Assembly (NCBI GenBank): GCA_017428485.1
Contig: JAFRQT010000057.1
Coordinates: 22,745 to 86,744, forward strand
Length of the DNA: 64,000 nucleotides
Direction of reading: 5' to 3'
From: Bacilli bacterium
GTDB lineage: Bacteria; Bacillota_I; Bacilli_A; RF39; UBA660
Shown: in pieces, positions 7,105-50,616 of the stretch
Layout: every line of letters begins with the position of its first letter
Numbering within the stretch: position 1 is the first letter of the stretch
Translations under genes and position numbers: made by a program
The notes under the pieces: model-generated
Database searches by the model: none
Told to the model about the DNA's origin: nothing
Seen by the model: the letters and a program-made list of their open reading frames with translations, nothing else

Positions 7105-7180
7105 GGCCCATTGGTGAAATGGTTAACACATCGCCCTCTCAAGGCGACATTCATGGGTTCAAATCCCATATGGGTCACCA
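7105..7180 (+). tRNA. tRNA-Glu (anticodon CUC), CCA encoded
   Basis: Hand-folded cloverleaf. Acceptor GGCCCAT/ATGGGTC, anticodon stem TCGCC/GGCGA with loop CT-CTC-AA, and T arm ATGGG-TTCAAAT-CCCAT. The overall sequence resembles Bacillus tRNA-Glu. Confidence 0.85.
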
Positions 7181-8607: not shown

Positions 8608-9322
8608 TATATTACATTTATATTATGATCTTCTTAATTTATATGGTGAAAATGGAAATACAAGATGCTTAGTATATAATTTAGAGAGAAATAAAATTAA
8701 AGTTAAAGTTGATTTAAAAAGCCTTGGAGACAAAATAGATTTTACTAAATATGATTTAATATATATATCTTCTGGTGATGAAGAATCTATAGAGCTTGCA
8801 TTAATTGATATATTAAAATACAAAAAAGAATTAACTAAATTTATTGAAGATAATAAATACTTAATTTTAACAGGAAATGCAATCGATTTATTTGGAAGTC
8901 ATATTAAGACAAATAAACAAGATTTAGATGCTTTAGGCATATTTGATTATTATACAGAATATATTGAAAGCAGTAAGTTTAAAAATGCCTCTACTGATAG
9001 AATTGTTGGTGAGGTTGAAGCAACAACAAAACTAATTGATAAAAAGATTATTGGTTTTCAAAATAGATGTGACTTAGTATTTAATGTGAAGACTCCACTT
9101 TTTAAAACTAAAACAAAATATTCAAATGATTGCAATCAAGAAGATGAAGGATTTACATATAAAAATGTTTATGCAACTCATATAATTGGTCCCTTATTTA
9201 TAAGGAATCCATATTTCACAGATTATATTTTAAATAAGCTATGTGAAGAAAAAAAATTAAAATATAAAGCAATTGATGATTCTGCTAAAATTGCATATAA
9301 AAAATACTTAAATTTAAATTAA
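8600..9322 (+). CDS. gatD: lipid II isoglutaminyl synthase glutaminase subunit GatD (CobQ-type amidotransferase)
   Basis: 240 aa. The N-terminus LNLYGENGNTRCL is typical of GatD, and the gene is translationally coupled to murT. Confidence 0.8.
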   Translation: MINILHLYYDLLNLYGENGNTRCLVYNLERNKIKVKVDLKSLGDKIDFTKYDLIYISSGDEESIELALIDILKYKKELTKFIEDNKYLILTGNAIDLFGSHIKTNKQDLDALGIFDYYTEYIESSKFKNASTDRIVGEVEATTKLIDKKIIGFQNRCDLVFNVKTPLFKTKTKYSNDCNQEDEGFTYKNVYATHIIGPLFIRNPYFTDYILNKLCEEKKLKYKAIDDSAKIAYKKYLNLN

Positions 9323-9392
9323 GTATTTTTTTTATTAACTAATTATTATATTTTTATATTTTTTTGTGTTCAAAAATTAAATAATTAGTGAT

Positions 9393-9420
9393 TTGACAAT
9401 AATTTTGAAAGAATTAAAAT
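9393..9420 (+). promoter_or_regulatory. promoter of small-peptide gene copy 1
   Basis: TTGACA (9393-9398), 16-nt spacer, TAAAAT (9415-9420). The predicted TSS is ~9427-9428, at the start of the conserved GAACAACTGAT element. Confidence 0.65.
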
Positions 9421-9477
9421 GTATTTTGAACAACTGATTGTTAGATGTTATCACACTCATAAAGGAGGTGATACAAG

Positions 9478-9561
9478 ATGATTAAAAAAGATTTTTTGAT
9501 TATGTCATTAGTCTTTATAATTCTATTACTTATTATCCTACTATATGTAGTTTTAATATAA
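9478..9561 (+). CDS. 27-aa hydrophobic peptide, candidate type I toxin (copy 1)
   Basis: ATG preceded by AAGGAGGTGA at 7-nt spacing. Peptide MIKKDFLIMSLVFIILLLIILLYVVLI has a charged N-terminus and one TM-length helix. It falls below the ORF-track cutoff. Confidence 0.6.
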   Translation: MIKKDFLIMSLVFIILLLIILLYVVLI

Positions 9562-9562
9562 A

Positions 9563-9632
9563 TAAAAAACCTAACTAAGAATAGTTAGGATTCCAAACAA
9601 GAACACCTAACATTCGAATATCAGTTGTTCCT
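9563..9632 (-). ncRNA. predicted ~70-nt antisense RNA (candidate antitoxin, copy 1)
   Basis: Runs from the minus-strand promoter at 9639-9667 to the hairpin cctaacta-agaa-tagttagg (9570-9589). That hairpin is followed by TTTTTT only on the minus strand. The RNA is complementary to the 3' region downstream of the peptide stop codon. Confidence 0.45.
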
Positions 9633-9638
9633 ATAAAA

Positions 9639-9667
9639 ATATTATCATATTTTATTATTTTTGTAAA
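9639..9667 (-). promoter_or_regulatory. convergent promoter for the antisense RNA (copy 1)
   Basis: The minus strand reads TTTACA-17nt-TAATAT with a TG extended -10 (tatGaTAATAT). Confidence 0.55.
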
Positions 9668-9789
9668 TATAACTAATTTTTAAAGAATTTGTTATTTTAT
9701 ATACTTATTCTTTAATTATTGATTAATGCTTTTTAACCATTATTTATTATTTGTAAAATTACATATTCAAAAATTAAATAATTAGTGAT

Positions 9790-9817
9790 TTGACAATAAT
9801 TTTGAAAGAATTAAAAT
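9790..9817 (+). promoter_or_regulatory. promoter of small-peptide gene copy 2
   Basis: TTGACA (9790-9795), 16 nt, TAAAAT (9812-9817). Identical to copy 1. Confidence 0.65.
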
Positions 9818-9874
9818 GTATTTTGAACAACTGATTGTTAGGTGTTATCACACTCATAAAGGAGGTGATACAAG

Positions 9875-9958
9875 ATGATTAAAAAAGATTTTTTGATTAT
9901 GTCACTAATCTTTATAATCCTATTACTTATTATCCTACTATATGTAGTTTTAATATAA
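9875..9958 (+). CDS. 27-aa hydrophobic peptide, candidate type I toxin (copy 2)
   Basis: Peptide MIKKDFLIMSLIFIILLLIILLYVVLI with the same SD and spacing. It differs from copy 1 by 2 synonymous changes and V12I. Confidence 0.6.
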   Translation: MIKKDFLIMSLIFIILLLIILLYVVLI

Positions 9959-9959
9959 A

Positions 9960-10032
9960 TAAAAAGCCTAACTAAGAATAGTTAGGTTTTACCAACAAGG
10001 TAACACCTGACATTTGAATATCAGTTGTTCCT
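9960..10032 (-). ncRNA. predicted antisense RNA (candidate antitoxin, copy 2)
   Basis: Runs from the promoter at 10039-10067 to the hairpin at 9967-9986, followed by CTTTTT on the minus strand. It lies immediately downstream of the psd stop on the same strand. Confidence 0.45.
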
Positions 10033-10038
10033 ATAAAA

Positions 10039-10067
10039 ATATTATCATATTCTGTTATTTTTGTAAA
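10039..10067 (-). promoter_or_regulatory. convergent promoter for the antisense RNA (copy 2)
   Basis: TTTACA (reverse complement of 10062-10067), 17 nt, TAATAT (reverse complement of 10039-10044) with TG. The -35 lies in the last codons of psd. Confidence 0.55.
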
Positions 10068-10930
10068 TTATTTTTAATACCAATTCTTTCACCATATTTA
10101 ACTATAGTCTCGATATTCTCTTTTGAATTATTAACAATATCATCATCTAAAATAATTGTATCTTTTTTAAATAATAAAACTATTGTAGATCCACCAAATT
10201 CAAAATATCCTTTTTCTTCTCCTTTAAAGAAACTATATTCTTTATGATGATTTTTAATTCTTCCTACTCCTAGTGCACCAATATCTATATCTATAACTTT
10301 ACCAAAATTATTTGTATTTAATATAGTATATTCACGAGAATTAGTTTTAAAGAAATTATAATGTTTTAATGATATTGGCTGTACCGTATGAAATGTTCCT
10401 TTTATGTAATAATTATCACTTTTAGTGCCACTATCAATATAGCAATATCTATGATAATTATCAGTTGATAATCTAAAAACTAAAGCATATCCATCAGTAT
10501 ATTCTTTCATTATTTTTTTATCTACTAAAGTATCTATACTATAATATGATTCTTTTATTTTTAAAGTTAAATCTTTAGTTATTTTATATGCTAATAACTT
10601 TGAATCACAAGGAGATATTAATATACCTTTTCTTGCATTAATTGGTCTTTTAACTTCTTTTATTTTTCTTGTAAAGAAATCATTATATGAAGTGTATTCT
10701 TTATTTTCATAATCATACATATTTATATTATTTTCTTTAATAAATTTATCTATTTTTTTAATAGAAGATTTACTATTCATATATTTACCTATCAAATTAG
10801 TTATAGGTTTACTAATAGCTATTTTAATAAATAATCTTCCAATAAAATTACCATAAAAAAAATTAAGAGCTTTATTAGACTCTATAATTATATTTTCTTT
10901 ACTATTTCTATTTCTTACTATGGTCTCCAT
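10055..10930 (-). CDS. psd: phosphatidylserine decarboxylase proenzyme
   Basis: 291 aa. The C-terminal FEFGGSTIVLLF contains the G-S-T self-cleavage motif. It overlaps pssA by 13 nt. Confidence 0.85.
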   Translation of the reverse strand: METIVRNRNSKENIIIESNKALNFFYGNFIGRLFIKIAISKPITNLIGKYMNSKSSIKKIDKFIKENNINMYDYENKEYTSYNDFFTRKIKEVKRPINARKGILISPCDSKLLAYKITKDLTLKIKESYYSIDTLVDKKIMKEYTDGYALVFRLSTDNYHRYCYIDSGTKSDNYYIKGTFHTVQPISLKHYNFFKTNSREYTILNTNNFGKVIDIDIGALGVGRIKNHHKEYSFFKGEEKGYFEFGGSTIVLLFKKDTIILDDDIVNNSKENIETIVKYGERIGIKNNLQK

Positions 10931-15549: not shown

Positions 15550-16162
15550 TTTCCTCCTTATTTATTTTAATATCACTATATCCATCACTTTTAAGTATAT
15601 TATTTAATACTTTCATATCTGCTGTTGCATTTTCAATATCACTCTCATACATATTATTTAATATTTTTTTAAATGACGAATTAATTTCACGTAATGTTTC
15701 TTTAGAACTTTCAAAATACTTTTTAGCGTCTTTACTCGATAATCTTTGATTTTCTATATCATCATATTTTTCAACAATTCCAACTGTAATTGGTAAATAG
15801 TATGTAAAGAATTTTTCAGATTGTTTAATCTTTTTTCTATTCTTTTGAACAGTACTAATTATTTTACCAGTTGTAGTATTAATTCCTCTTAAGTATTCTT
15901 GAACTTCTTCATCATCAACTTTTAAAACCATATCCAATATAAATTTATTTTTCATCCGAGCATCATTTAAAACTTGTTCTACATTCTTTTCATCAACTTT
16001 ATCAAAAACAAATATATTTGTTTTACTCATCAATAGTTCACTTCCAACAAATGCCGCAGCACCCACTGCTAAAGCAGGGATTATAGGTATACCAACGGCT
16101 AAATATGTTGCTGCAAAAAATGTACCACCAAGTATTCCGGATAATACTTCTTTATTTTTCAT
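15539..16162 (-). CDS. xpaC: XpaC-like (5-bromo-4-chloroindolyl phosphate hydrolysis) membrane protein
   Basis: 207 aa with two N-terminal TM helices and a helical C-terminus. Size and adjacency to a TelA/YaaN gene mirror B. subtilis xpaC-yaaN. Confidence 0.55.
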   Translation of the reverse strand: MKNKEVLSGILGGTFFAATYLAVGIPIIPALAVGAAAFVGSELLMSKTNIFVFDKVDEKNVEQVLNDARMKNKFILDMVLKVDDEEVQEYLRGINTTTGKIISTVQKNRKKIKQSEKFFTYYLPITVGIVEKYDDIENQRLSSKDAKKYFESSKETLREINSSFKKILNNMYESDIENATADMKVLNNILKSDGYSDIKINKEENDE

Positions 16163-16164
16163 TA

Positions 16165-17760
16165 TTAATTATATCCCCTAACTTTTTTAAATGCTAAAGT
16201 TAAATTGTCTTTTCCATCGAATACTTTTCCATTAGTCAAATCAGATATCTCTAATAATTCTCTTTCATCAGCATTACCAAATGTAATACTATATATTGGA
16301 ATTTCCTTATTTATAGATTTATATACTGATTTTAATTCACTAAATGTTCCAACATTTGCTCTACCATCAGTCATTAATATTATTGAAGATACATATTCAT
16401 CACTTTCATTTGATAATATTCTAAGGCCTTTAATTGCTGCAGGATATAAAGCAGTTGATCCACTTAAATCCTGCTCCTCAATCCTATAAATCAAATCCTT
16501 CTTAGTAAGTCCATCAGTTGTTGACCAAGTACCAAGTACATCATTTCCAAAAGGAATAACATCTATTTTATCTTTATTACTAAAACTAATAGTTAAATCA
16601 TTACTACTAAGAATAGTATTCATAGCCTTAGTTAATTCCTCTATTCCATTTCCATACATACTACCAGAATAATCTAAACAAAATACTACATGAATAGGTT
16701 TTCTAAATTCAGTTAAATATAATTCCAAGGCTTCTTTCATTACAGCCATACTTGGATATTTTATTGGTGTTATATATGTTGTAGTATTAATTCCCCAAGA
16801 TGGATTAAATACATCCTTAGGAGCATTGTTGTTAACACCACCATACCAAGTTCTACGCCCATTATTAAGTAAAATCTTTTGTCCTTCTTCACTCAATAAA
16901 TAACCTTGAATATCATCAAATATTTCTTTTTTAGTTTCATTTTTGTTATCTATATAAACAAATGGACTATCAGATATTGCAACGCCATCAACAGGATATA
17001 CTGCATATAATGTTTCTTTACCCTCACTTGCTAATTTTTTATTTATATTAATGATAGAAGATTCATAAGTAAACGCAGCATCATAATCTCCATTTATAAA
17101 TGATGACTCTAAGAAATCTTCATCACCAGATGTTCTTTTTATTCCTTTAAAGAATTGTTTTAATTCTCTTTTTAATTCTGGGTCTTTTAAATGACTTGAT
17201 TTTAATACTTCTGGATTACCTGCTAAATTAGAAAGGATTTCGAAATATGCAGAAGCACCACTATTAGTAGTTAGTGGATTTGCCATACTAAATGTTAATT
17301 CCCCACTTTTAATTTTATTTAAAATATCTTTAGTGTATATTTTTTTATTCTTAAATCCTAAACTTTCTGCCTTAGAATCCTTAATACCAAATATTACAGG
17401 TGTAATACTAGTTGATCTTAAAGAACTTGTTTTAACAGAAGAATCTAAACTACTTAACCAAACAGAATTTGACATAAATATAGCATCATATTTACTACCC
17501 CCATTTAAAGTATCAATAACTTCAAGAGTATCAGCATAATTAATAACAACACTATATCCTTTTTTACGTGCATACTCTTTAATAGATGAATCTAATATTT
17601 TATTTTCACTACTAGATATAATTTTAAATATTTTATCACTATAAGTGTACTCTTCAATATCAGCATCTTCATCAATAATATCATTAATAATGCCAAATAA
17701 TATTACACCAATAATAATGAATAAAAATAATTTACCTTTTTTGCTTTTTCTTTGTTCCAT
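16165..17760 (-). CDS. membrane-anchored SBP-like plus von Willebrand factor A domain protein
   Basis: 531 aa. TM anchor, a PBP-like N-terminal half (ANPLTTNSGASAYF), and a C-terminal vWA domain with MIDAS motif LDYSGSM ... MTDG. Confidence 0.7.
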   Translation of the reverse strand: MEQRKSKKGKLFLFIIIGVILFGIINDIIDEDADIEEYTYSDKIFKIISSSENKILDSSIKEYARKKGYSVVINYADTLEVIDTLNGGSKYDAIFMSNSVWLSSLDSSVKTSSLRSTSITPVIFGIKDSKAESLGFKNKKIYTKDILNKIKSGELTFSMANPLTTNSGASAYFEILSNLAGNPEVLKSSHLKDPELKRELKQFFKGIKRTSGDEDFLESSFINGDYDAAFTYESSIININKKLASEGKETLYAVYPVDGVAISDSPFVYIDNKNETKKEIFDDIQGYLLSEEGQKILLNNGRRTWYGGVNNNAPKDVFNPSWGINTTTYITPIKYPSMAVMKEALELYLTEFRKPIHVVFCLDYSGSMYGNGIEELTKAMNTILSSNDLTISFSNKDKIDVIPFGNDVLGTWSTTDGLTKKDLIYRIEEQDLSGSTALYPAAIKGLRILSNESDEYVSSIILMTDGRANVGTFSELKSVYKSINKEIPIYSITFGNADERELLEISDLTNGKVFDGKDNLTLAFKKVRGYN

Positions 17761-17784
17761 ATATCCTCCTAATTATCCATTAAA

Positions 17785-17813
17785 ATTATACCAAATATAT
17801 ATGTTATATGCAA
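17785..17813 (-). promoter_or_regulatory. putative promoter of the vWA-XpaC-SBP-TelA-AAA operon
   Basis: The minus strand reads TTGCAT-17nt-TGgTATAAT. The SD AGGAGGA lies 4 nt before the ATG at 17760. Confidence 0.45.
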
Positions 17814-17867
17814 TTATTAAAATATATAAAAAGAAGCATTTTTTAATGCCTCTTATTAATTATTTTA

Positions 17868-20468
17868 TTATAGTTGTGCTCTTTTCTTTCTTACTACAAG
17901 GAATGTTACTGTACTTATGATTGCAACTACTAATAATGCAATTACAGGAGTTACAATTCCAGTATTAGCATTAGTACTAGCAGCTTTTGACCATTGAGCA
18001 TATACAGTCATATTTCCTGTGGCTATAACTGATTCTGTGATTTTTCTACCACCAGTTTTAGAAGTAAACCATCCAGCAAAATCATAACCCTTTCTTGAAG
18101 GTTTACACAATTCTCCCCAAGGAGTATTTGCTGGTACTTCTAATGTTGCAGGAGAACAAGCAGTTCCACCATTAGCATCATAAGTTAGGGTATATTTTTC
18201 ACCATTATTCTCAATCCAATGAGCATATAATTTTTCTACACCGATTGCACCGAATGTTACAGAGTCATCATATCTAACTCCACCTTCATCTTCAGTATAC
18301 CATCCATCGAATGTATAACCTTCTCTAGCAACAGTTATGTTAGATAATGCTTCAGCAATAGTTCCAGTTCCAGTTAGTGTAATTTGAAGACTTGAAGAAG
18401 GTTCACCATTATTTGTTAATGATCCACCATTAGCATCAAAAATAACCGTTACATTTGATCCAGCTGCATTTGCTGTTACAGTTGTTTGTGCTTTCAAAGT
18501 ATCTGAAAGTGCTGCAGTTACAGTTGTAGTGCCTGTAGCCTTACAAGCTATATTAACATAATATGATCTATAAAAACTAATACATCTTTCATAAGTAAGT
18601 TCAGTAACACCTGCTGCCCTACATCTTTCAATTGCTTCAGTATCTAATCTTACACAAGCTTCAGTCGAACCAGTACCAGTACATTCTCTTGGTGTCATTA
18701 AGCTTACTGTAGCCACTGAAGTATTACTACTCGTTACAGTAGGACTTGAAGGTGGATTCGATACATTAGCATATCTTACAACTGCTGTTATAGTCTTTCC
18801 AACTTCACATGTATATTTATCATATTCAAATTGAACAATGCCTTCTGGATCAGGAGAAGGTGTACTTCCTGCTTCTACTACTATGGTAGCATTAGCACTA
18901 CCTGTTGATGTTGTAGCGGTAATTACTGTAGTACCAGCACTAACGCCAGTAACAACACCACTACTATTAACTGTAGCTACACTAGGACGACTACTTGCCC
19001 ATGTAACTGTACCACCAGCAGGATTTGTTAACTCGAATGTGAATGTATCTCCTACATTTATAGTTCCACTAGTTGGATTTAATGTCATAGCATTTCCAAT
19101 AACAAAACTCGCTGTTGTTTTAGTAAATTTATAGTTACTACATTTAGCTTGTCCACCTGTAATAGCTTTACAAGTTACTGTTACAGTATAACTTCCTTCA
19201 TCACTAGGAGCTGTTGTTCCTAATGAAGTTCCATCAGACTTTTTATATTCTCTAGTCCATCCAGTAGATGCATTAATTGTTTCACCTTCAACTAATGTTG
19301 CACTTGGAGTCTGTGAATGTTGCTGTCCATCATGTGGAAAAACATTATTGCTCCATTTTACTTCTACACTTTTTGGATCTATTTTACATTTGAATTCTTT
19401 TGTACCACTTCCAGTACCACCCCATCTATATCCGGATTTTAAACTTGCTGTTATAGTATATTCTCCAGCATCTTTTTGATTATATCCGCTTAATGTCCAT
19501 CCAGTTCCACTAGTTGAAGATACTATTTGCTGTTCAGCACCAGTGTACACAAGATTAGGTTTACATAATTTATCAGCTGTAACATCATTTTCATCGGCAC
19601 TTGAATAAGATTGAGCAGCAGTAACAGTTAATGTTCCTTTTGCCTTGCCAATACTATAGTTAGTACGTTTACCACTTGTAAATTTAACTTCTTTTATTGT
19701 TTTATCACTACTTCCTACATTTGTTTGGCTACCTTCACAAACGCATGATATTTCATCGCTGCCTTTTAAGCCAGACGCAGTACAATTATTATCGGCTGTT
19801 AAAGGAGTACCATCATAAGTTTTACTTTGATCAGTAGCTGTCACTGTAAGAGTAGTAGGCAATATTGTACATGTCAAATCTATAGTATTTGAACCACCTT
19901 CAAATGTATAATTAGAGTCAGCCTCTGCAGTAACTGTATAAGTATCTGCGTCAGTTTGACTATTGTTTTTGTATGATACATGACTACCACCACTTACTAA
20001 AGTTTGAGGCTCACCAGTGTAAGATACTGTATTACAACTACCAACAACAGCACGATTGCTCACTGGATTCCAACCTTGTGGACAACCACCAGAAAATGAA
20101 CCATAACATATGCCATCGTCTACTGTACCGGAATCACCACATGAATATGATGAAATAATTAATGTTCCTGTCCCCTGCGTCCATCCAGTAGCAGAGTGAG
20201 CTGTACAAGCCTCAAGACAAGTTTTATATGTAGTTGCAGTATCAGAAAAATTTAATGTTTCTGCTTCTACGCATGTTTCCGTTGCTGTATTGCAAGAACA
20301 AACACAAGAACCCTTATATAAAGGAGTTGCAGGTTTCGTACACGAAACAGTTGCTGCCTTTACCCTTTCCATTGAATTTTTATTACCATAAGTAAAATAC
20401 AAAGTTGAACATATTAATATTGCAAACAAAAAGATTGGCAATATTAATTTTTTAAAAATTGTTTTCAT
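17868..20468 (-). CDS. large cell-surface protein (Cys-rich N-terminus, MBG/YDG repeats, Big_2 Ig-like domain, Listeria-Bacteroides repeats, NxxTG anchor)
   Basis: 866 aa with a signal peptide. Contains KTYDGTPLTA MBG-type repeats, VTWASSRPSVATVNSSGVVTGVSAGTTVITAT (Big_2), and two GY(T/D)F(D/A)GW(Y/F)T repeats. The C-terminus is NANTG, then a TM helix, then RKKRAQL. Confidence 0.8.
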   Translation of the reverse strand: MKTIFKKLILPIFLFAILICSTLYFTYGNKNSMERVKAATVSCTKPATPLYKGSCVCSCNTATETCVEAETLNFSDTATTYKTCLEACTAHSATGWTQGTGTLIISSYSCGDSGTVDDGICYGSFSGGCPQGWNPVSNRAVVGSCNTVSYTGEPQTLVSGGSHVSYKNNSQTDADTYTVTAEADSNYTFEGGSNTIDLTCTILPTTLTVTATDQSKTYDGTPLTADNNCTASGLKGSDEISCVCEGSQTNVGSSDKTIKEVKFTSGKRTNYSIGKAKGTLTVTAAQSYSSADENDVTADKLCKPNLVYTGAEQQIVSSTSGTGWTLSGYNQKDAGEYTITASLKSGYRWGGTGSGTKEFKCKIDPKSVEVKWSNNVFPHDGQQHSQTPSATLVEGETINASTGWTREYKKSDGTSLGTTAPSDEGSYTVTVTCKAITGGQAKCSNYKFTKTTASFVIGNAMTLNPTSGTINVGDTFTFELTNPAGGTVTWASSRPSVATVNSSGVVTGVSAGTTVITATTSTGSANATIVVEAGSTPSPDPEGIVQFEYDKYTCEVGKTITAVVRYANVSNPPSSPTVTSSNTSVATVSLMTPRECTGTGSTEACVRLDTEAIERCRAAGVTELTYERCISFYRSYYVNIACKATGTTTVTAALSDTLKAQTTVTANAAGSNVTVIFDANGGSLTNNGEPSSSLQITLTGTGTIAEALSNITVAREGYTFDGWYTEDEGGVRYDDSVTFGAIGVEKLYAHWIENNGEKYTLTYDANGGTACSPATLEVPANTPWGELCKPSRKGYDFAGWFTSKTGGRKITESVIATGNMTVYAQWSKAASTNANTGIVTPVIALLVVAIISTVTFLVVRKKRAQL

Positions 20469-20573
20469 AGATATCTCTCCTTATTATCTATATATAATTT
20501 TAGATTAAAAAATTATAAGTGTCAATCCTTTATGTAAATTTTTGTAAAATAAAAAAGACTTTTTACAAAGCCT

Positions 20574-22517
20574 TTATTCTAAATTAATATTTTTATTTTT
20601 AATGAACATATATACTGCAAAGCTTGCTATAGTGATTAACATTAATCCTATTACAGGAGTTGCTATTCCTGTTAATGGATTAATTATTGCTTTTTGTTTC
20701 CATTGAGCATATACGATTAAATTATCTTCTGCTCTAGAATTTTCTGTTATTTTTTTACCACCAGTTTTAGAAGTGAACCATCCAACAAAATCATATCCTT
20801 CTCTTGTAGGTGTACACAATTCTCCCCAAGTTGATATTACTATTTGTTTGGTAATAGAATTGGGTGAGCATGCAGTTCCTCCATTACTATCAAAAGTTAA
20901 TGTTACAGGTGCTGGACCTTCAATAGGATTATCATATATAGAAGACCCTACAGCTTCTACTTCTATGGTTGTACTGACAGCATCATCTCCAGTACCATAT
21001 GATACTGCTATAATTGCTGTTCCACCTAATGGTGATGCTTTTTTAACTAATCCTTTATCTACTGTAAATATGCTTTCATCACTACTTGTCCATGTTGCTG
21101 TATCTGTTACATCTTGTGGTGGAAGTGTTCCATAAACGGCTGACGCTCTTAACTGAGTTTGACCTTCAACAGTTATTCTTTCTGGTAATGTACTATTATC
21201 ATCTGCTGAAAGTTCGATACGCCATGCAGTTTTTCTTATTGTTATAGTCATTCTATCAGTATAAGTATTTCCGTCATAAACTAATCTAGCATTAATACTT
21301 GTACTACCTATAGCTAAGTAGTTTATGTTGATTTTTGCCATTCCACCTGAAGTGTCATTTATTTCTACATTTGATATTTTAGCAATATTTTCGTTTTCAA
21401 TATTGAATTCTACATTTTCTAATTCAGAGTTAGGAATATTTCTAAGTCTCAATCTTACAACTCCACTGCCATTTCCTAATATATGATAAACTTCGGGTAC
21501 CATATGCTTTTCAACGAATTCTATTGATTTTTCTGTATTTGTTGAACTAACTTCTACAGTTGCTGATCTTTCAATTCCATTGGCACTTACAGATACTGTT
21601 GTTCTACCAGAAGATAAACAATTAACTCGAACATACCTACACCCCACACAGGTTGGTTGTAATTCCGGATTAAGTTCAATAGTTGCTATTGAAGAATTTC
21701 CACTTGCATATATAAAGTCAGATGATTGCAATAATGAATATTTTACCATTAAAATTTTTTGCTCTCCAACGTTACATGTTACATCATCTGTCATTGAAAT
21801 ATATGGCTTTACAGTTATTGTTGATGTTGCATTATGTGTACCATCTGATGCTGTTGCCGTGATAACTGCTGTTCCAGCTGCTAATCCTCTAACCAATCCA
21901 TTAGAATCAACAGATGCAATTAATGGATTATTTGATGTCCATGTTACACTCTTATCTTCCACTTCTGCAGGAGTAACAGTAGCTGTTAATTGGACAGTTT
22001 CATCAACTTCAATTTCTTCACTAGAGGGGTTTAGGGTTACACCTGTAATTGCACTAGGAGCATAATCGATAGTTAACCTAGCACTTCCCCTAGCCACAAC
22101 TTCACATGGATCCCATGGATAATAACATGTTGTTTCACCAGTATATGTATATGCATTAACATTTAAATCGAAACTACTACCTGGATTATTACATGTAATT
22201 CTTAATTCAATGCATTTAGAATCATCTAAAGTATGCACATTACGACAAGCATTTCCCCCATCATTTATTGCAGTTGTAACATCATTATTAAAACTAGTAT
22301 ATTTTAAATCAGTAAATTGATATGTATCTGGAGAACCTTCATAATCAGAAGCATGAATAACGAAATAAGTTTCAATAGTTTCTCCTTCAACACATGTATA
22401 ACTGTCTTTCTCTAAAGTAATTGTAAAATTATCCGCTTTTACATTTTCAGCAAATAAACTTATAAATAAAAATGCACTAATTATTGTTAAAACTACTATT
22501 TTAAATTGTTTTTTCAT
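20574..22517 (-). CDS. cell-surface protein (Big_2 Ig-like domains, Listeria-Bacteroides repeat, NPLTG anchor)
   Basis: 647 aa with a signal peptide. Contains VTWTSNNPLIASVDSNGLVRGLAAGTAVITATA (Big_2) and GYDFVGWFTSKTGG. The C-terminus is NPLTG, then a TM helix, then KNKN. Confidence 0.8.
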   Translation of the reverse strand: MKKQFKIVVLTIISAFLFISLFAENVKADNFTITLEKDSYTCVEGETIETYFVIHASDYEGSPDTYQFTDLKYTSFNNDVTTAINDGGNACRNVHTLDDSKCIELRITCNNPGSSFDLNVNAYTYTGETTCYYPWDPCEVVARGSARLTIDYAPSAITGVTLNPSSEEIEVDETVQLTATVTPAEVEDKSVTWTSNNPLIASVDSNGLVRGLAAGTAVITATASDGTHNATSTITVKPYISMTDDVTCNVGEQKILMVKYSLLQSSDFIYASGNSSIATIELNPELQPTCVGCRYVRVNCLSSGRTTVSVSANGIERSATVEVSSTNTEKSIEFVEKHMVPEVYHILGNGSGVVRLRLRNIPNSELENVEFNIENENIAKISNVEINDTSGGMAKININYLAIGSTSINARLVYDGNTYTDRMTITIRKTAWRIELSADDNSTLPERITVEGQTQLRASAVYGTLPPQDVTDTATWTSSDESIFTVDKGLVKKASPLGGTAIIAVSYGTGDDAVSTTIEVEAVGSSIYDNPIEGPAPVTLTFDSNGGTACSPNSITKQIVISTWGELCTPTREGYDFVGWFTSKTGGKKITENSRAEDNLIVYAQWKQKAIINPLTGIATPVIGLMLITIASFAVYMFIKNKNINLE

Positions 22518-22616
22518 TAACCTTCATTCCTCTCTACACTACACATTTATTATAATAGATTTCTCTTATTAAATCAATACATATCTTTTTTTTAAAAAGA
22601 CTTTATATAAAGCCTT

Positions 22617-22856
22617 TTATTCTAAATTCATATTTTTATTTTTAATGAACATATATACTGCAAAGCTTGCTATAGTGATTAACATTAATCCTATTACAGG
22701 AGTTGCTATTCCTGTTAATGGATTAATTATTGCTTTTTGTTTCCATTGAGCATATATGATTAAATTATCTTCCGCTCTAGAATTTTCTGTTATTTTTTTA
22801 CCACCAGTTTTAGAAGTGAACCATCCAGCAAAATCATATCCCTCTCTTGTAGGCAT
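22617..22856 (-). pseudogene. 5'-truncated paralog of the surface-protein C-terminus
   Basis: About 245 bp, roughly 97% identical by eye to 20574..20815, including the stop codon and the downstream terminator-like hairpin. Similarity ends abruptly at ~22856. There is no signal peptide, SD or upstream coding sequence. Confidence 0.75.
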
Positions 22857-22980
22857 ACATATTAATAAAAAAATGCTATTATCTTAAATTTTTCATGTAT
22901 TTTACCTACTTTCTCTATTATAGAGATACAACCATCTAAATATCATGTCAAAATATATGTTGGTTTTTTACGTCAAAATA

Positions 22981-23010
22981 AAAAGACTTTTTACAAAGTC
23001 TTTTATATTT
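22981..23010 (-). terminator. Rho-independent terminator after tuf
   Basis: Hairpin aaaagacttt-ttac-aaagtctttt with T and A runs on both sides. Confidence 0.7.
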
Positions 23011-23015
23011 TTTTA

Positions 23016-24185
23016 TTATCCTAAGATTTCAGTAACTTTTCCAGCTCCAACAGTTCTACCACCTTCACGAATTGAGAAACTTGTTCCGTTTTCAATTGCG
23101 ATTGGAGTGATTAATTCAACTGTCATATCAACATTGTCACCAGGCATAACCATTTCAGTACCTTCTGGTAATGTAATTACACCAGTAACATCAGTTGTTC
23201 TGAAATAGAATTGAGGTCTATAGTTACTAAAGAATGGAGTATGACGTCCACCTTCTTCTTTAGATAGAACATAAACGCTAGCTTTGAATTTCTTATGTGG
23301 TGTGATAGTTCCTGGTTTGCAAAGAACTTGTCCTCTTTCAACATCTTCTCTGTTAATACCACGAAGTAAAACTCCAGCATTATCTCCAGCTTCAGCATAA
23401 TCTAAAGATTTTCTGAACATTTCAATTCCTGTAACTACTGTCTTTCTTGTATCTCTAATTCCTACGATTTCAACTTCGTCATTAAGATTTAATTTACCTC
23501 TTTCAACACGACCTGTAACAACAGTTCCACGTCCTGTGATAGTAAATACATCTTCAATACTCATTAAGAATGGTTTTTCAGTATCACGAACTGGAGTATC
23601 AATCCATGAATCAACTGCAGCCATAAGATCCTTAATTGGTTGAACATAAGCTTCATCACCTTCAAGAGCCTTAAGAGCAGAACCACGAATAACTGGAGTA
23701 TTGTCTCCATCAAATCCGTATTCAGTTAATAATTCACGAACTTCCATTTCTACTAAATCTAAAAGTTCAGCATCATCAACCATATCACATTTGTTGATAA
23801 ATACTACCATTTTTGGAACACCAACTTGACGAGCAAGTAAGATATGTTCACGAGTTTGAGGCATTGGTCCATCTGTTGCACTAACAACTAAGATAGCACC
23901 ATCCATTTGAGCAGCACCTGTGATCATGTTTTTAACGTAATCAGCATGTCCTGGGCAGTCTACGTGAGCATAGTGACGTTTGTCAGTACTATATTCAACG
24001 TGAGCAGTATTAATTGTAATACCTCTTGCTTTCTCTTCTGGAGCTTTATCAATTTGGTCATAAGCCATGAATTCTCCGAAGTATTTAGTAATTGCAGCTG
24101 TTAATGTTGTTTTACCATGGTCAACGTGTCCAATAGTACCAATATTAACATGTTCTTTAGAACGATCGAATTTTTGTTTTGCCAT
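23016..24185 (-). CDS. tuf: elongation factor Tu
   Basis: 389 aa with [18 protein letters not shown] and NKCD motifs. Unmistakable EF-Tu. Confidence 0.98.
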
Positions 24186-24277
24186 TTTTATTTCCTCCTT
24201 TTTTCAACATAAATATATTTTATCTAATACTTGAAAATATTTCAAGTATAAATAACATTTTTGGCAAAAGTATACTT

Positions 24278-26350
24278 TTATTGTACACCATTTCTCTTAA
24301 TAATTGTTTCAGCAATATTCTTTGGTACTTCTTCATAATGATCAAAAATCATTTGATAAGTTCCACGTCCTTGAGTATTGCTTCTTAAAACTGTCATGTA
24401 ACCAAACATTTCTGAAAGTGGTACCATTGCTCTTATATTGATATCTTTACCAATAGCTTCATTTCCAAGTGGTTTACCACGTCTACCTGTTAAGTCACCC
24501 ATAACAGTACCCATGAATTCTTCTGGAACTCTAACATCAACTAACATGATAGGTTCTAGTAAACATGGATTACATTTATTTTTAGCTTCTTTTAAAGCCA
24601 TAGATGCAGCAATTTTAAATGCCATTTCATTTGAGTCTACATCATGATAAGATCCATCAAATAATGTACACTTAACATCTATCATAGGATATCCTGCTAG
24701 TACACCACCAGCAAGTGCTTCTTGAAGTCCTTTGTCTACAACTGGAATATATTCTCTTGGAACTACTCCACCAACAACTTCATCAACAAACTCATATCCC
24801 TTATCAGGATTTGGTTCAAATTTAACCCAAACATGTCCGTATTGTCCACGTCCACCTGATTGTTTAATATATTTACCTTCACATTCAGCTGATTGTTTTA
24901 ATGTTTCACGATAAGCAACTTGTGGTTTACCAACATTTGCTTCAACATTAAATTCTCTTCTCATTCTATCAACTAGAACGTCTAAGTGAAGTTCACCCAT
25001 ACCAGCAATAATAGTTTGGCCAGTTTCATGATCAGTTTTTGCTCTAAATGATGGGTCTTCTTTAGCTAATTTTTGAAGTGCTAAGCTCATCTTTTCTTGA
25101 TCAGCTTTTGATTTTGGTTCAATAGCAAGTTCAATAACTGGTTCTGGGAATACCATCTTTTCTAAGATTACTTGATTCTTTTCATCGCAAAGTGTATCTC
25201 CAGTAGTAGTATCTTTTAATCCTACTGCAGCCGCTATTTCACCAGCATATACTTCAGAAATTTCTTTTCTTTGATTAGCATGCATTTGAAGAATACGTCC
25301 GATTCTTTCTTTTTCACCATTAGTTGAGTTCATTACATAACTTCCACTCTTTAGTACACCAGAGTATACACGGAAGAAAGTTAAGTTTCCAACAAATGGG
25401 TCATTCATAACTTTAAATGCTAAAGCTGAGAATGGTTCATTATCACTAGCTTTTCTTTCAACAGGCTTATCATTCATGTCAACTCCCTTAACAGCTTCGA
25501 TATCTGTAGGTGCTGGTAAGTAATCAATAACAGCATCAAGCATAGCTCTTGTACCTTTATCATCTAATGCATCAGCACATAAGATTGGGAAGAATTTAAC
25601 ATCAATTGTAGCTTTTCTAATTGCAGACTTTAATAATTCAGCAGTAACTTCATTACCTTCTAAGTAAGTTTCCATTAACTCATCACTATAGTCAGCAACA
25701 GCATTAATTAATTTATCTCTATATTCTTCTGCCTTATCTTTCATATCAGCAGGAATTTCTATTTCAGATAATTCTTGTTCTTTAGTACCATCATACTTGT
25801 ATGCCTTCATTGTAACTAAATCTACATATCCAGTAAAATGATCTTCTGCTCCGATTGGTAACATAATAGGTTCTGCATTATTAGCAAGTCTATTATGAAT
25901 TGAATCTAATGAATAATAGAAATCAGCTCCTATTTTAGTCATTTTATTAGCACAAATCATTCTTGGTACCATGTAATCATTTGCTTGTCTCCAAACTTGT
26001 TCAGTTTGAGTTTCTACACCAGCTTGAGCATCTATTAAAGCAATAGCTCCATCAAGTACTCTTAAACTACGAGCAACTTCAATTGTAAAGTCTACGTGTC
26101 CTGGTGTATCGATTATATTAAGTCTATAACCTTTCCAGTGTACAGTAGTTGCAGCACTAGTAATAGTTATACCTCTTTCTTTTTCTTGATCCATCCAGTC
26201 CATTTGGCTTTCACCATCATGTGTTTCACCAATTTTATGGATGTTTCCACCTAGGTATAGGATTCTCTCAGTTGTTGTTGTTTTACCAGCATCAATGTGA
26301 GCCATAATTCCTATATTACGTGTTTTATCTATTGATACATCACGTGCCAT
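24278..26350 (-). CDS. fusA: elongation factor G
   Basis: 690 aa with [12 protein letters not shown] and DTPGHVDF. Sits in str operon order. Confidence 0.98.
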
Positions 26351-26366
26351 ATACTAGTCTCCCTTC

Positions 26367-26834
26367 TTACCATCTATAATGAGCATATGCCTTATTAGCT
26401 TCTGCCATCTTATGAGTATCTTCACGCTTTTTAACTGCTCCACCTACTCCGTTTGAAGCATCTATAATTTCAGCAGCTAGATTTTCTGCCATCCCTTTTC
26501 CTTTTCTAGTTTTTGCATATTGAATTAACCAACGAAGAGTAAGTGCATTAGCTCTATCTTCTCTAACTTCAGTTGGAACTGAATAGTTGCTTCCACCAAT
26601 ACGTCTACTTCTAATTTCTAAAGCTGGTTTAATGTTTTCAAATGCTTTATTTAAAACTTCTATAGGATCTTGTTTTGTTTTTTCTTTAACTATATCAAGA
26701 GCACTATATAATATTTTTTGAGCAGTACCTTTTTTACCACCAATCATGATTCCATTGATAAGTTTAGTAATCATTTTAGAATTGTATATAGGATCTGCTA
26801 AAACATCTCTTTTAATTGCTTGTCTCTTACGCAT
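26367..26834 (-). CDS. rpsG: 30S ribosomal protein S7
   Basis: 155 aa ending [14 protein letters not shown]. Confidence 0.97.
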
Positions 26835-26867
26835 GTTTATTTATCTCCTTTCTTAAAGTATTATTTT

Positions 26868-27281
26868 TTATTTCTTAGGTTTTTTAGTTCCGTATTTACT
26901 TCTTCCTTGACGTCTCTTATCAATACCAGCAGTATCTAAAGTACCACGAACAATATGATAACGAACACCGATAAGGTCTTTAACACGTCCACCTCTAATT
27001 AGAACAACACTATGTTCTTGAAGATTATGTCCTTCTCCACCAATATAACAAGTAACTTCATATCCATTACTTAGTTTTACTCTGGCTATTTTTCTTAAAG
27101 CTGAGTTTGGTTTTTTAGGTGTCTTAGTTGAAACACGAGTACATACTCCACGTTTTTGTGGTGAAGTATTATTTGTTTTTAATTTGTCTTTTGAGTTATA
27201 TCCAATATTTAATACTGGGCTTTTACTCTTTTTAGTTTTTTGTCCTCTTCTTTTTCTAACTAATTGATTAATTGTAGGCAT
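26868..27281 (-). CDS. rpsL: 30S ribosomal protein S12
   Basis: 137 aa with [21 protein letters not shown]. The conserved loop reads [11 protein letters not shown] instead of RVKDLPGVRYH. Confidence 0.97.
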
Positions 27282-27373
27282 GAATTTTTTCTCCTTTCTT
27301 AATACACATTTCCAGGCGTATCAAAATCATTATTTTTATTAGTTTTCCCTAGGGAAAACCACAAATCTACATA

Positions 27374-27402
27374 ATGATATCATTAAAAAAACTTAATGTC
27401 AA
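27374..27402 (-). promoter_or_regulatory. putative str operon promoter
   Basis: The minus strand reads TTGACA-17nt-TATCAT. The -35 lies in the loop of the upstream terminator hairpin (aacttaatgt...acattaagtt). Confidence 0.5.
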
Positions 27403-27449
27403 TATCTTTCTTCACATTAAGTTTATTTTTTGTAAAAATTATTATTCTT

Positions 27450-50021: not shown

Positions 50022-50231
50022 AATATCCTCCATATATCATTTTAGCACATAAATAAATATTTTTGTAGTCTTTTCCAAAATAAAATAAGGAATAATCCTT
50101 AATTTTACATTTTATTAAAGCAACTAATTATTTGATTTTATACTTTGTTTTGATATTTAAAGTAATAAAATCTCTTAGAGATTATCAAATTTTGAGTATG
50201 AATATTATATTAATAATTGAATTTTACCAAT

Positions 50232-50259
50232 TTGATTTATTTTTTCTAATATATAAAAT
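50232..50259 (+). promoter_or_regulatory. promoter of small-peptide gene copy 3
   Basis: TTGATT, 16 nt, TAAAAT (50254-50259). The predicted TSS again falls at the G of GAACAACTGAT (50267). Confidence 0.55.
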
Positions 50260-50315
50260 TGTTACTGAACAACTGATTGTTAGGTGTTATCACACTCATA
50301 AAGGAGGTGATGCAA

Positions 50316-50399
50316 GTGACTAAAAAGGATTTTCTGATTTCATCATTAATCTTTCTTATTCTCTTACTTATTATTCTACTTTTTGTAGTTTTAATATAA
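50316..50399 (+). CDS. 27-aa hydrophobic peptide, candidate type I toxin (copy 3, GTG start)
   Basis: Peptide (M)TKKDFLISSLIFLILLLIILLFVVLI with the same AAGGAGGTGA SD and spacing. It differs from copy 2 by 7 synonymous codon changes and 4 replacements. Confidence 0.55.
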   Translation: MTKKDFLISSLIFLILLLIILLFVVLI

Positions 50400-50467
50400 A
50401 AAAGCACCTAACTAGAATTAGTTAGGTCTACAAAGTAACACCTGACCTTCGAAAATCAGTTGTTCAC
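50398..50467 (-). ncRNA. predicted antisense RNA (candidate antitoxin, copy 3)
   Basis: Runs from the promoter at 50474-50502 to the 9-bp hairpin acctaacta-gaat-tagttaggt (50406-50427), followed by GCTTTTTT on the minus strand. Confidence 0.45.
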
Positions 50468-50473
50468 ACTAAA

Positions 50474-50502
50474 ATAGTATCATAAAATAAACAAATTGTA
50501 AA
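50474..50502 (-). promoter_or_regulatory. convergent promoter for the antisense RNA (copy 3)
   Basis: The minus strand reads TTTACA-17nt-TACTAT with a TG extended -10 (tatGaTACTAT). Its position is conserved relative to copies 1 and 2. Confidence 0.5.
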
Positions 50503-50529
50503 TGAATATCAAAAAAATACACAAATGTG

Positions 50530-50558
50530 TTGACAAAGCATTTTATATTTGGTAATAT
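50530..50558 (+). promoter_or_regulatory. putative helD promoter
   Basis: TTGACA-17nt-TAATAT, about 60 nt upstream of the SD (AGGAGGG) and ATG 50617. Confidence 0.55.
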
Positions 50559-50616
50559 CTTTTGCATACGGTAAATTTAATCTAGAGTGTAAGCACTTAT
50601 TTTTATAGGAGGGTTA

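What the first reader, a model, noticed from the sequence alone, without database searches (positions are those of the whole stretch)
9825..10030. The mRNA 5' end is complementary to its own 3' region, and the predicted antisense RNA starts with the same sequence as the mRNA
Seen in sequence: the first 22 nt of the predicted mRNA are GAACAACTGAT-TGTTAGGTGTT (9825-9846; copy 1 at 9428-9449; copy 3 at 50267-50288). They are complementary to AACACCTGACA-[7-nt spacer]-ATCAGTTGTTC about 150 nt downstream (10002-10030; copy 1 at 9602-9630; copy 3 at 50437-50465). That gives an 11-bp perfect helix plus a second 11-bp helix with one G-U pair. The outer 11-mer is invariant in all three copies, while the 7-nt spacer varies (ttcgaat, tttgaat, ttcgaaa). 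Immediately 3' of the 5' element, TATCAC...GTGATA can enclose the SD in a hairpin loop. The antisense promoter fires just outside the 3' element, so the predicted sRNA begins (A)GGAACAACTGAT...TGTTAGGTGTT and its 5' end mimics the mRNA 5' end. Both RNAs would therefore compete for the same 3' site. Established knowledge: long-range 5'-3' pairing (fold-back inhibition) keeps hok-family mRNAs translationally inert, and 3'-overlapping antitoxins trigger RNase III decay in Bacillus. Inference: this is a circularising lock combined with an antitoxin that imitates the lock strand, a combination I have not seen described. Caveat: I see no clear plus-strand terminator downstream of the 3' element, so whether the 3' element is actually included in the toxin mRNA is unproven.
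Basis: partly seen in the sequence, partly recalled or inferred. Interest (0 to 1): 0.75.

Follow-up and report, generated by a model that had tools for sequence, protein, structure and literature searches.

The report
Toxin mRNA clamp with nested antisense RNA
Three copies of an unannotated type I toxin-antitoxin-like module encode a 27-residue membrane peptide whose mRNA ends pair with each other, and a small antisense RNA covers the 3' strand of that pairing; the pairing is real and conserved, but the same design is already known from bsrG/SR4 of Bacillus subtilis.

Summary
Each of three window copies has the same layout. A sigma-70 promoter is followed by the 5' end GAACAACTGAT|TGTTAGGTGTT, an SD hairpin and a 27-aa hydrophobic ORF. 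Next come a hairpin that is a terminator only on the minus strand, the element AACACCTGACA-7nt-ATCAGTTGTTC, and a convergent promoter.

Eight further copies were found in uncultured Clostridia, Firmicutes and Bacilli MAGs and in metagenomes. They keep the 5'-3' pairing through seven pairs with changes on both sides and many plus-strand G.U pairs (94% of cells paired; 0/500 shuffles reach this). RNAalifold predicts the clamp unaided. No copy has a plus-strand U-tract after the hairpin, so the mRNA must reach the 3' element.

Predicted SD sequestration is local and does not depend on the clamp, so the clamp looks like an end-protecting stability helix rather than a translational lock. The "antitoxin mimics the lock strand" point follows automatically from antisense coding. 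The combination is also not new: in bsrG/SR4, helix P1 (nt 1-35 with 232-262) is opened when SR4 binds the 3' strand.

Verdict: a new, unannotated member of a known kind, of moderate interest.

The parts
9790..9817 (+). Copy 2 toxin-mRNA promoter (TTGACA-16-TAAAAT). The predicted start is about 7 nt downstream, at G9825.
   Evidence: 11 of 12 matches. The same layout occurs in all copies.
9825..9846 (+). Copy 2 5' clamp strand: X (9825-9835, GAACAACTGAT) plus Y (9836-9846, TGTTAGGTGTT).
   Evidence: Mean pairwise identity is 93% in the main family, against 41-65% in neighbouring linkers.
9846..9870 (+). Copy 2 SD hairpin: TATCAC / GTGATA around the 12-nt SD AAAGGAGGTGAT (9858-9869).
   Evidence: The stem is kept by U.G in L019 (GTGGTA).
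9875..9958 (+). Copy 2 ORF, 27 aa: MIKKDFLIMSLIFIILLLIILLYVVLI.
   Evidence: The 27-codon frame is kept in 12 of 13 copies.
9967..9986 (-). Copy 2 hairpin. It is an intrinsic terminator of the antisense RNA (U-tract on the minus strand only). On the sense strand it is an internal stem-loop.
   Evidence: No copy has a plus-strand U-tract.
10002..10030 (+). Copy 2 3' clamp strand: Y' (10002-10012), 7-nt spacer (10013-10019), X' (10020-10030). On the minus strand the same DNA encodes the sRNA 5' hairpin, and the spacer forms its loop.
10039..10067 (-). Copy 2 antisense promoter (TTTACA-17-TAATAT with an extended TG).
9957..10032 (-). Copy 2 predicted antitoxin sRNA, about 75 nt: 5' hairpin, pyrimidine-rich linker and terminator hairpin.
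   Evidence: The ends are predicted, not mapped.
9393..9667 (.). Copy 1, whole module: promoter 9393-9420; X/Y 9428-9449; ORF 9478-9561; hairpin 9570-9589; Y'-spacer-X' 9602-9630; antisense promoter 9667-9639.
50232..50502 (.). Copy 3, whole module: promoter 50232-50259; X/Y 50267-50288; ORF (GTG start) 50316-50399; hairpin 50406-50427; Y'-spacer-X' 50437-50465; antisense promoter 50502-50474.

Best explanation
Each copy is a compact (about 280 bp) type I toxin-antitoxin-like module.

The sense transcript starts at the G of GAACA and encodes a 27-residue, almost purely hydrophobic peptide behind a 12-nt SD that is held in a local stem. It reads through the hairpin after the stop codon, because that hairpin has a U-tract only on the other strand. 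It then transcribes a 3' element whose two 11-nt halves pair with the first 22 nt of the same RNA. This 22-bp clamp, interrupted by a 7-8-nt bulge, buries both RNA ends. It most likely protects a translationally quiet toxin mRNA from exonucleases.

A convergent promoter 7 nt outside the clamp makes an sRNA of about 75 nt. The sRNA is fully complementary to the toxin 3' UTR. Its 5' hairpin is the folded complement of the clamp's 3' strand, and its loop is complementary to the clamp's bulge.

Binding probably starts at two contacts: loop to bulge, and terminator loop to sense-strand hairpin loop. It then spreads into a duplex of about 70 bp. The duplex expels the mRNA 5' end from the clamp and exposes the mRNA to RNase III and 5'/3' decay, as in bsrG/SR4.

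Shown here:
- the conserved anatomy;
- covariation of the clamp and of the sRNA hairpin;
- the strand asymmetry of the terminator.

Inferred:
- the transcript ends;
- toxicity of the peptide;
- the order of RNA contacts;
- the nucleases involved.
For: Anatomy in the three window copies.

Eight more full copies were found in L013-L019. They include a second tandem copy in L016 and two copies in L019.

Clamp:
- 94.1% of 253 cells are paired.
- 7 pairs changed on both sides; 0 of 500 shuffles reach this. Slid controls give 30-51%.
- RNAalifold finds the clamp without being told.
- Plus-strand G.U pairs outnumber A.C pairs.
- The L016b change U-A to C-G keeps Y-Y' but breaks the alternative X-Y pairing.

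sRNA hairpin: 90.8% paired on the minus strand against 79.1% for the same columns on the plus strand.

Promoters of both RNAs sit at a fixed 7-8 nt from the helix ends in all copies.

The hairpin tails on the plus strand lack a U-tract in all copies. L013 and L016b have A-runs there.

The clamp changes 5'-end exposure and not SD exposure.

X.Y, Y', X' and the SD are conserved islands at 91-98% identity. The linker is 41% and the spacer 64%.

The bsrG/SR4 precedent for clamp opening by a 3' antisense RNA is.
Against: - No transcript data exist. Neither RNA is shown to exist, and the mRNA 3' end is undefined. No conserved plus-strand terminator follows X'; only L017 has a U-run there.
- The covariation rests on about three or four independent lineages (the main group, L014/L017, L016b).
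- The plus-strand G.U bias is only a trend: about 8 events against 3, binomial p about 0.11 (my count).
- Toxicity of the peptide is untested, and it lacks the charged C-terminal tail common in type I toxins.
- Y can also pair with the 5' arm of the hairpin as well as it pairs with Y', so the fold may be dynamic.
Confidence: 0.7

Rival explanations
1. A par/Fst-like design. The toxin mRNA ends at or near the shared hairpin. X.Y is quasi-palindromic, so the sRNA 5' region (X-loop-Y) pairs in trans with the mRNA 5' end (sRNA X with mRNA Y, and sRNA Y with mRNA X). The repeats would then work like DRa/DRb, and the 5'-3' complementarity would be a by-product.
For: Convergent promoters, a shared hairpin and an SD stem-loop resemble par. 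The cross pairings are 88-89% paired. In truncated transcripts, Y pairs with the hairpin's 5' arm. This recalls the par upstream helix.
Against: - The hairpin has no sense-strand U-tract in any copy, and A-runs follow it in L013 and L016b.
- The cross pairings carry a conserved A.G mismatch and are only 64-72% Watson-Crick, against 88-93% for the clamp.
- The L016b compensatory change preserves the clamp but breaks the cross pairing.
- The X.Y target lies upstream of the SD, so pairing there would not block ribosome binding directly.
Confidence: 0.12
2. A DNA-level inverted repeat: terminal inverted repeats of a small mobile element, a palindromic operator bound by one regulator at both promoters, or arms kept alike by gene conversion. 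No RNA helix would be involved.
For: The module is multi-copy and tandemly duplicated. It is an insertion of about 730 nt that is absent from the gatD-psd junction of relatives. The repeat arms start exactly at both predicted transcription starts.
Against: - The arms differ mostly by changes that give G.U on the plus strand, and changes on both sides keep pairing. DNA recognition or gene conversion would instead keep the arms identical.
- Both promoters lie outside the repeat yet move with it.
- I saw no target-site duplication when reading the flanks.
- The spacer is free to vary, as expected of a loop or bulge.
Confidence: 0.05
3. The locus is not a toxin-antitoxin pair. It would be a benign small membrane protein whose mRNA is stabilised by end pairing and tuned by an antisense RNA.
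For: The peptide has no hit in Pfam or NCBIfam. It lacks a charged C-terminal tail. No toxicity data exist.
Against: The features together are the usual signature of type I systems:
- multi-copy, tandem, insertion-like distribution;
- a sequestered, over-long SD as in txpA and yonT;
- a dedicated convergent sRNA;
- a purely hydrophobic peptide of fewer than 30 aa.
One copy (L018) is frameshifted with a decaying clamp.
Confidence: 0.1

Closest known systems
bsrG/SR4 (and the structurally similar bsrE/SR5) type I TA systems of Bacillus subtilis
   Same: The toxin mRNA is closed by a long 5'-3' helix (P1, nt 1-35 with 232-262). The SD sits in a short local stem. The antisense RNA is convergent and overlaps the 3' end, and one of its loops contacts the 3' strand of P1. 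Complex formation leaves the mRNA 5' strand single-stranded, and RNase III decay follows.
   Different: - The peptide is unrelated and shorter (27 aa against 38 aa) and has no charged tail.
- The sRNA is about 75 nt and lies wholly inside the toxin 3' UTR. SR4 is about 180 nt with a non-complementary 5' stem-loop.
- There is no sense-strand terminator after the clamp, whereas bsrG has SL4.
- The clamp begins at nucleotide +1 of both RNAs.
- No SD-helix extension is predicted on antitoxin binding.
- The hosts are uncultured Clostridia and Bacilli MAGs.
par (fst RNA I / RNA II) of Enterococcus faecalis pAD1 and its Fst-family homologues
   Same: Convergent promoters, a hairpin shared by both RNAs, a 5' stem-loop that sequesters the SD, and an intramolecular helix that hides the extreme 5' end to stabilise the toxin RNA.
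   Different: - The repeats here are inverted, not direct, so the sRNA 5' end resembles the mRNA 5' end rather than complementing it.
- The hairpin terminates one strand only.
- The peptide lacks the Fst PXXXG motif and the charged tail.
- The sRNA is complementary along its whole length.
hok/sok fold-back inhibition (fbi-tac) and aapA1/IsoA1 long-distance 5'-3' interaction
   Same: The toxin mRNA 5' end pairs with its 3' end. Mutually exclusive helices built from a repeated short motif suggest sequential folding (established knowledge of hok and aapA1; PMC5416894 appears in the hit list but was not read).
   Different: In those systems the antisense RNA targets the 5' region, and 3' trimming activates translation. 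Here the antisense RNA targets the 3' strand of the helix itself, and the clamp is not predicted to control the SD.

Membership tests
Type I toxin-antitoxin systems (general kind) | Small hydrophobic, membrane-type peptide ORF of fewer than 60 aa | tested here: met
   A 27-aa ORF with an N-terminal KKD/E and then about 21 hydrophobic residues. The frame and length are kept in 12 of 13 copies.
Type I toxin-antitoxin systems (general kind) | A cis- or nearby-encoded antisense sRNA complementary to the toxin mRNA | tested here: inconclusive
   A convergent promoter and a minus-strand intrinsic terminator are conserved in all copies, and the sRNA hairpin covaries. Expression cannot be checked with these tools.
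Type I toxin-antitoxin systems (general kind) | The peptide is toxic when expressed and is neutralised by the sRNA | not testable with these tools
   This needs expression experiments.
BsrG/SR4-type (TxpA/BsrG toxins) | Toxin homologous to TxpA/BsrG | tested here: not met
   No Pfam or NCBIfam family matches at E <= 10. I did not check whether either library holds a TxpA/BsrG model, and the peptide is too short for the large protein searches.
BsrG/SR4-type (TxpA/BsrG toxins) | Long 5'-3' helix closing the toxin mRNA | tested here: met
   A 22-bp clamp, 94% paired, with 7 covarying pairs.
BsrG/SR4-type (TxpA/BsrG toxins) | Antisense RNA overlaps the 3' strand of that helix | tested here: met
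   The predicted sRNA start lies 1-2 nt outside X' in all copies. This rests on promoter prediction only.
BsrG/SR4-type (TxpA/BsrG toxins) | The toxin mRNA has its own terminator stem-loop after the helix | tested here: not met
   No plus-strand terminator-like site lies downstream of X'. Only L017 has a U-run there.
BsrG/SR4-type (TxpA/BsrG toxins) | Antitoxin binding extends the SD helix; RNase III cleaves the duplex | not testable with these tools
   Prediction shows no change in SD exposure. Nuclease dependence needs experiments.
par / Fst-RNA II | Fst/Ldr toxin (PXXXG motif, charged C-terminus) | tested here: not met
   No proline, no charged tail and no Pfam hit.
par / Fst-RNA II | Bidirectional intrinsic terminator shared by both RNAs | tested here: not met
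   The U-tract lies only on the sRNA strand in all copies. Plus-strand tails include AAAACC and ATTCC.
par / Fst-RNA II | Direct repeats that make the sRNA 5' end complementary to the toxin translation-initiation region | tested here: not met
   The repeats are inverted. The quasi-palindromic cross pairing is weaker (64-72% Watson-Crick), is broken in L016b, and lies upstream of the SD.
par / Fst-RNA II | 5' stem-loop sequestering the SD, and a helix hiding the extreme 5' end | tested here: met
   Predicted unpaired probability of the SD is 0.26 or less in every copy. The 5' end is 0.00-0.15 unpaired (0.00-0.01 in 9 of 11 copies) in the full-length RNA.
hok/sok | Hok/Gef toxin, overlapping mok reading frame, and Sok antisense at the 5' leader | tested here: not met
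   There is no Pfam hit. The antisense promoter is at the 3' end. No conserved leader ORF was seen: the only upstream ORF begins upstream of the predicted TSS.

The most novel reading that the evidence does not exclude
The module may be a four-strand exchange device.

The 5' element Y (GUUAGGUGUU) is a near copy of the 3' arm of the antitoxin's terminator hairpin. The hairpin's 5' arm (AACACCUAAC) is a near copy of Y'.

During transcription, Y would first capture the hairpin's 5' arm. This would act as an anti-hairpin, letting the sense polymerase pass the antitoxin's terminator. Y would then hand over to Y' once the clamp strand is made.

The antitoxin would work chiefly by 'un-clamping', that is by exposing the mRNA 5' end to 5'-3' decay, rather than by blocking translation.

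One 10-nt motif used four times would then set read-through, mRNA stability and antitoxin sensitivity.
Probability: 0.2. Interest if true: 0.6.

Novelty: new member of a known kind. Interest (0 to 1): 0.4.

Why it matters
It adds an unannotated type I toxin-antitoxin-like family from uncultured, very AT-rich, spore-forming gut or rumen Firmicutes, where few such systems are known.

The module is very small (about 200-nt mRNA and 75-nt sRNA). It shows clean natural covariation for both the mRNA clamp and the antitoxin hairpin. That makes it a convenient model for how a 3' antisense RNA opens a 5'-3' helix. It could also be raw material for compact RNA switches.

It does not change current understanding, because bsrG/SR4 already established the principle.

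Tried and rejected
- Rfam, at the gathering threshold on the whole window and permissively on 9300-10150, found only a tRNA and sub-threshold noise.
- Pfam and NCBIfam scans of the peptides found nothing.
- The large protein search refuses queries under 40 aa, so relatives had to be found by DNA pattern.
- Viral-contig scans found nothing: zero hits with the inverted-repeat pattern and the SD-to-C-terminus pattern. The 17-nt SD pattern gave only unrelated chance hits.
- blastn against plasmids gave no match. Against phages it gave only chance AT-rich hits in Campylobacter phages.
- RNAduplex between the sRNA and the mRNA 5' part gave only loose, non-conserved pairings. An apparent anti-SD stretch in the sRNA linker of copy 2 is not conserved in copies 1 and 3.
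- A text search for the peptide and motif strings found no relevant paper.
- Synteny look-ups through GatD homologues gave one more strain with the module (L019). Otherwise they gave empty sites.
- U-turn (YUNR) motifs occur in 8 of 10 sRNA 5' loops, but this is too low in information to count.
- The MITE or operator reading and the par-like direct-repeat reading were considered and rejected, as set out under the rival explanations.

Full report
**1. Checking the observation**

The sequence is as described. GAACAACTGAT lies at 9825-9835, and its exact complement ATCAGTTGTTC lies at 10020-10030. TGTTAGGTGTT (9836-9846) pairs with AACACCTGACA (10002-10012) with one U.G pair. A 7-nt spacer separates the two 3' halves.

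The same arrangement occurs at 9428-9449 / 9602-9630 and at 50267-50288 / 50437-50465. Three details need correcting:
- Copy 1 has A at 9445, which gives an A.C mismatch, and A at 9609.
- Copy 3 has a terminal U.C mismatch.
- The sRNA of copies 2 and 3 would read UGUCAGGUGUU.

The public contig of the same locus (L010) differs from the window at only 2 of 6,876 positions. One of these is 9445, where L010 has G, making copy 1's inner helix perfect.

The pattern is far beyond chance. The 11-mer with up to one mismatch occurs 10 times in the window against 1.6 expected, and 0 of 100 shuffles reach that. The 206-nt sense transcript folds to -65.5 kcal/mol with z = -8.25.

**2. What surrounds it**

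Each copy is a complete small module:
- a near-consensus promoter (TTGACA-16-TAAAAT) 7 nt upstream of the first G of the helix;
- the 22-nt 5' element;
- a stem, TATCAC/GTGATA, around AAAGGAGGTGAT. This SD has 12 nt of complementarity to the Firmicute 16S 3' end (my knowledge of that sequence), a feature also reported for txpA and yonT;
- a 27-codon ORF, MIKKDFLIMSLIFIILLLIILLYVVLI;
- a hairpin;
- a variable linker;
- the 3' element;
- a convergent promoter (TTTACA-17-TAATAT with an extended TG) 7 nt outside the 3' element.

The scan finds the hairpin to be terminator-like only on the minus strand, in all three copies.

The window is a metagenome-assembled contig with about 25% G+C from a spore-former. 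It carries spoVAC/AD, an AAA-ATPase gene I read as spoVK-like, and a murT/gatD pair. Nothing matches Rfam, Pfam or NCBIfam.

**3. Relatives**

The peptide is too short for the protein tools, so I used DNA patterns.

An SD-anchored 20-mer found a strain variant (L012, truncated) and a diverged copy (L013) in metagenomes. A pattern anchored only on the SD and the last five codons was run against one genome per species. It found five loci in MAGs labelled uncultured Clostridia, Clostridiales, Firmicutes and Bacilli (L014-L018).

A second tandem copy sits in L016. A 95%-GatD strain (L019) has two more copies. Relatives with 73-80% GatD identity have gatD and psd abutting. The tandem pair in the window is therefore an insertion of about 730 nt.

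All copies keep both promoters at 7-8 nt from the helix ends. All keep the 27-codon frame except L018, which has a 1-nt deletion and also the most damaged clamp.

**4. Is the 5'-3' pairing selected?**

Yes. On an 11-sequence alignment, the 23 proposed pairs are standard in 94.1% of 253 cells. Seven pairs changed on both sides, and 0 of 500 shuffles reach this. Sliding the partner by 1-3 columns drops pairing to 30-51% (10-sequence version). RNAalifold predicts both halves of the clamp without guidance.

The specific changes are:
- L014 and L017 have GGAGCATTTAAT and GGAACATTTAAT, facing ATTAAATGTTCC and ATTGAATGTTCC. That is three double changes in X.
- L017 adds A-U to G-C and U-A to A-U in Y.
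- L016b adds U-A to C-G in Y.

One-sided changes mostly give G.U on the plus strand: 16 cells against a handful of A.C. My event count is about 8 against 3, which is a trend with p about 0.11.

X.Y, Y', X' and the SD are islands of 91-98% identity. The linker is 41% identical and the spacer 64%.

**5. Does the mRNA reach the 3' element?**

No copy has a U-tract after the hairpin on the plus strand. The tails there are ATTCC, TTTTACC, TCTAC, AAAACC, TAACAC, TACTTACC, TTTACCC, AAAAACC, AACCC and TTTACC. Every copy has a U-tract on the minus strand.

The hairpin is therefore the antitoxin's terminator, and the sense polymerase should pass it.

What remains unknown is where the sense RNA ends. No conserved plus-strand terminator follows X', and only L017 has a U-run there. 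Trimming back to the clamp, or collision with the convergent promoter, are guesses.

**6. The antisense RNA**

The minus-strand transcript would be about 75 nt. It has a 5' hairpin (X, loop, Y), a pyrimidine-rich linker and the terminator.

Its hairpin is 90.8% paired with three covarying pairs. The same columns read on the plus strand are only 79.1% paired. So the G.U asymmetry favours a local hairpin in the sRNA and the long-range clamp in the mRNA.

The loop of the sRNA hairpin is the complement of the clamp's bulge. Being antisense to the clamp's 3' strand, the sRNA must resemble the mRNA 5' end. The 'mimicry' is a consequence of this, not an extra feature.

**7. A rival reading tested**

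X.Y is quasi-palindromic, so the inverted repeat can also be read as a par-like direct repeat, with sRNA X pairing to mRNA Y and the reverse.

These cross pairings are clearly poorer: 64-72% Watson-Crick against 88-93% for the clamp. They carry a conserved A.G mismatch. They are broken by the very change in L016b that preserves the clamp.

**8. What the clamp does**

Partition-function predictions for all 11 copies give the same low SD exposure (0.00-0.26) in three states: the full-length RNA, the RNA cut after the hairpin, and the RNA with its 3' UTR blocked as if sRNA-bound. The first 11 nt go from 0.00 unpaired to about 0.5.

The clamp therefore looks like an end-protecting stability helix, comparable to the par upstream helix. 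It does not look like a hok-type translational lock. Translation is held down locally by the SD stem.

**9. Comparison with known systems**

The closest match is bsrG/SR4. There the bsrG nt 1-35 pair with nt 232-262 in helix P1, and the SD lies in a 4-bp stem. SR4 overlaps the 3' part, and one of its loops contacts the 3' strand of P1. In the complex, nt 1-33 are single-stranded, and RNase III then cleaves.

The differences here are:
- an unrelated 27-aa peptide;
- an sRNA lying entirely within the 3' UTR;
- no sense terminator;
- a clamp that starts at +1 of both RNAs;
- no predicted SD-helix extension on antitoxin binding.

par/Fst shares the convergent layout, the SD stem-loop and 5'-end sequestration. 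It differs in having direct repeats, a truly bidirectional terminator and an Fst-type toxin. A text search for the peptide and motif strings found no relevant paper.

**10. An extra observation**

Y is a near copy of the hairpin's 3' arm, and the hairpin's 5' arm (with the end of the A-tract) is a near copy of Y'. Y pairs with that 5' arm as well as it pairs with Y': 100 Watson-Crick and 6 G.U of 110 cells. The match is a perfect 10/10 in L014, L015, L016 and L016b. It covaries in L016b and L017.

In transcripts cut just after the hairpin, the predicted ensemble prefers Y with the 5' arm over the hairpin in 6 of 11 copies. In full-length RNA the clamp plus hairpin win. This suggests sequential folding, and perhaps an anti-hairpin role for Y on the sense strand. 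I could not test this further.

**11. Verdict**

This is a new, unannotated family of a known kind of system, working most like bsrG/SR4. Interest is moderate.

Noticed in passing
window 9836-9845, 9964-9973, 9980-9989 and 10002-10011; the same elements in L013-L018: One 10-nt motif is used four times. Y resembles the 3' arm of the post-stop hairpin, and the hairpin's 5' arm resembles Y'. Y pairs with the hairpin 5' arm as well as it pairs with Y' (perfect in four copies; covaries in L016b and L017). This pairing is predicted to win in transcripts that end just after the hairpin. It may reflect sequential folding or an anti-hairpin role.
   Followed up: partly
window 9445 and 7866: The window differs from the public ENA contig of the same locus (L010) at only these two positions in 6,876 nt. 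Position 9445 (A here, G there) creates the single A.C mismatch in copy 1's clamp.
   Followed up: yes
window 9323-10054; L019 3224-3952; L020-L028: The tandem pair of modules (unit of about 397-400 nt) fills the gatD-psd intergenic region only in the window's lineage and in a 95%-identical strain. In relatives with 73-80% GatD identity the two genes abut or overlap. The pair is therefore a recent insertion of about 730 nt.
   Followed up: yes
L018 6427-6630: This copy has a 1-nt deletion that shortens the ORF to 24 aa. It also has the most damaged clamp (one mismatch and three G.U pairs in 22 pairs), as expected of a decaying copy.
   Followed up: partly
L012 2319-2329: In a 98.5%-identical strain, X reads GAACGACTGAT (A to G). 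This would give G.U with an unchanged partner, but the contig ends before the 3' element, so the partner is unknown.
   Followed up: partly
window 9858-9869, 9461-9472, 50300-50311: The SD AAAGGAGGTGAT has 12 nt of complementarity to the Firmicute 16S 3' end. It is the most conserved block of the module (97-98% identity). Over-long SDs are reported for the txpA and yonT toxins.
   Followed up: no
window 48309-52656: Copy 3 lies between a 574-aa ORF I read as ezrA-like (minus strand) and a 679-aa ORF I read as UvrD/HelD-like (plus strand). No sense terminator lies before the helicase gene, so toxin read-through could enter it.
   Followed up: no
window 16001-28000: G+C is higher here (0.31-0.33) than in the rest of the window (0.23-0.28). 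The region has no rRNA hit in Rfam.
   Followed up: no
L023-L025 259-1131: A KilA-N domain gene lies between spoVAC and murT in these relatives. In the window that interval holds a tRNA gene (7105-7177).
   Followed up: no
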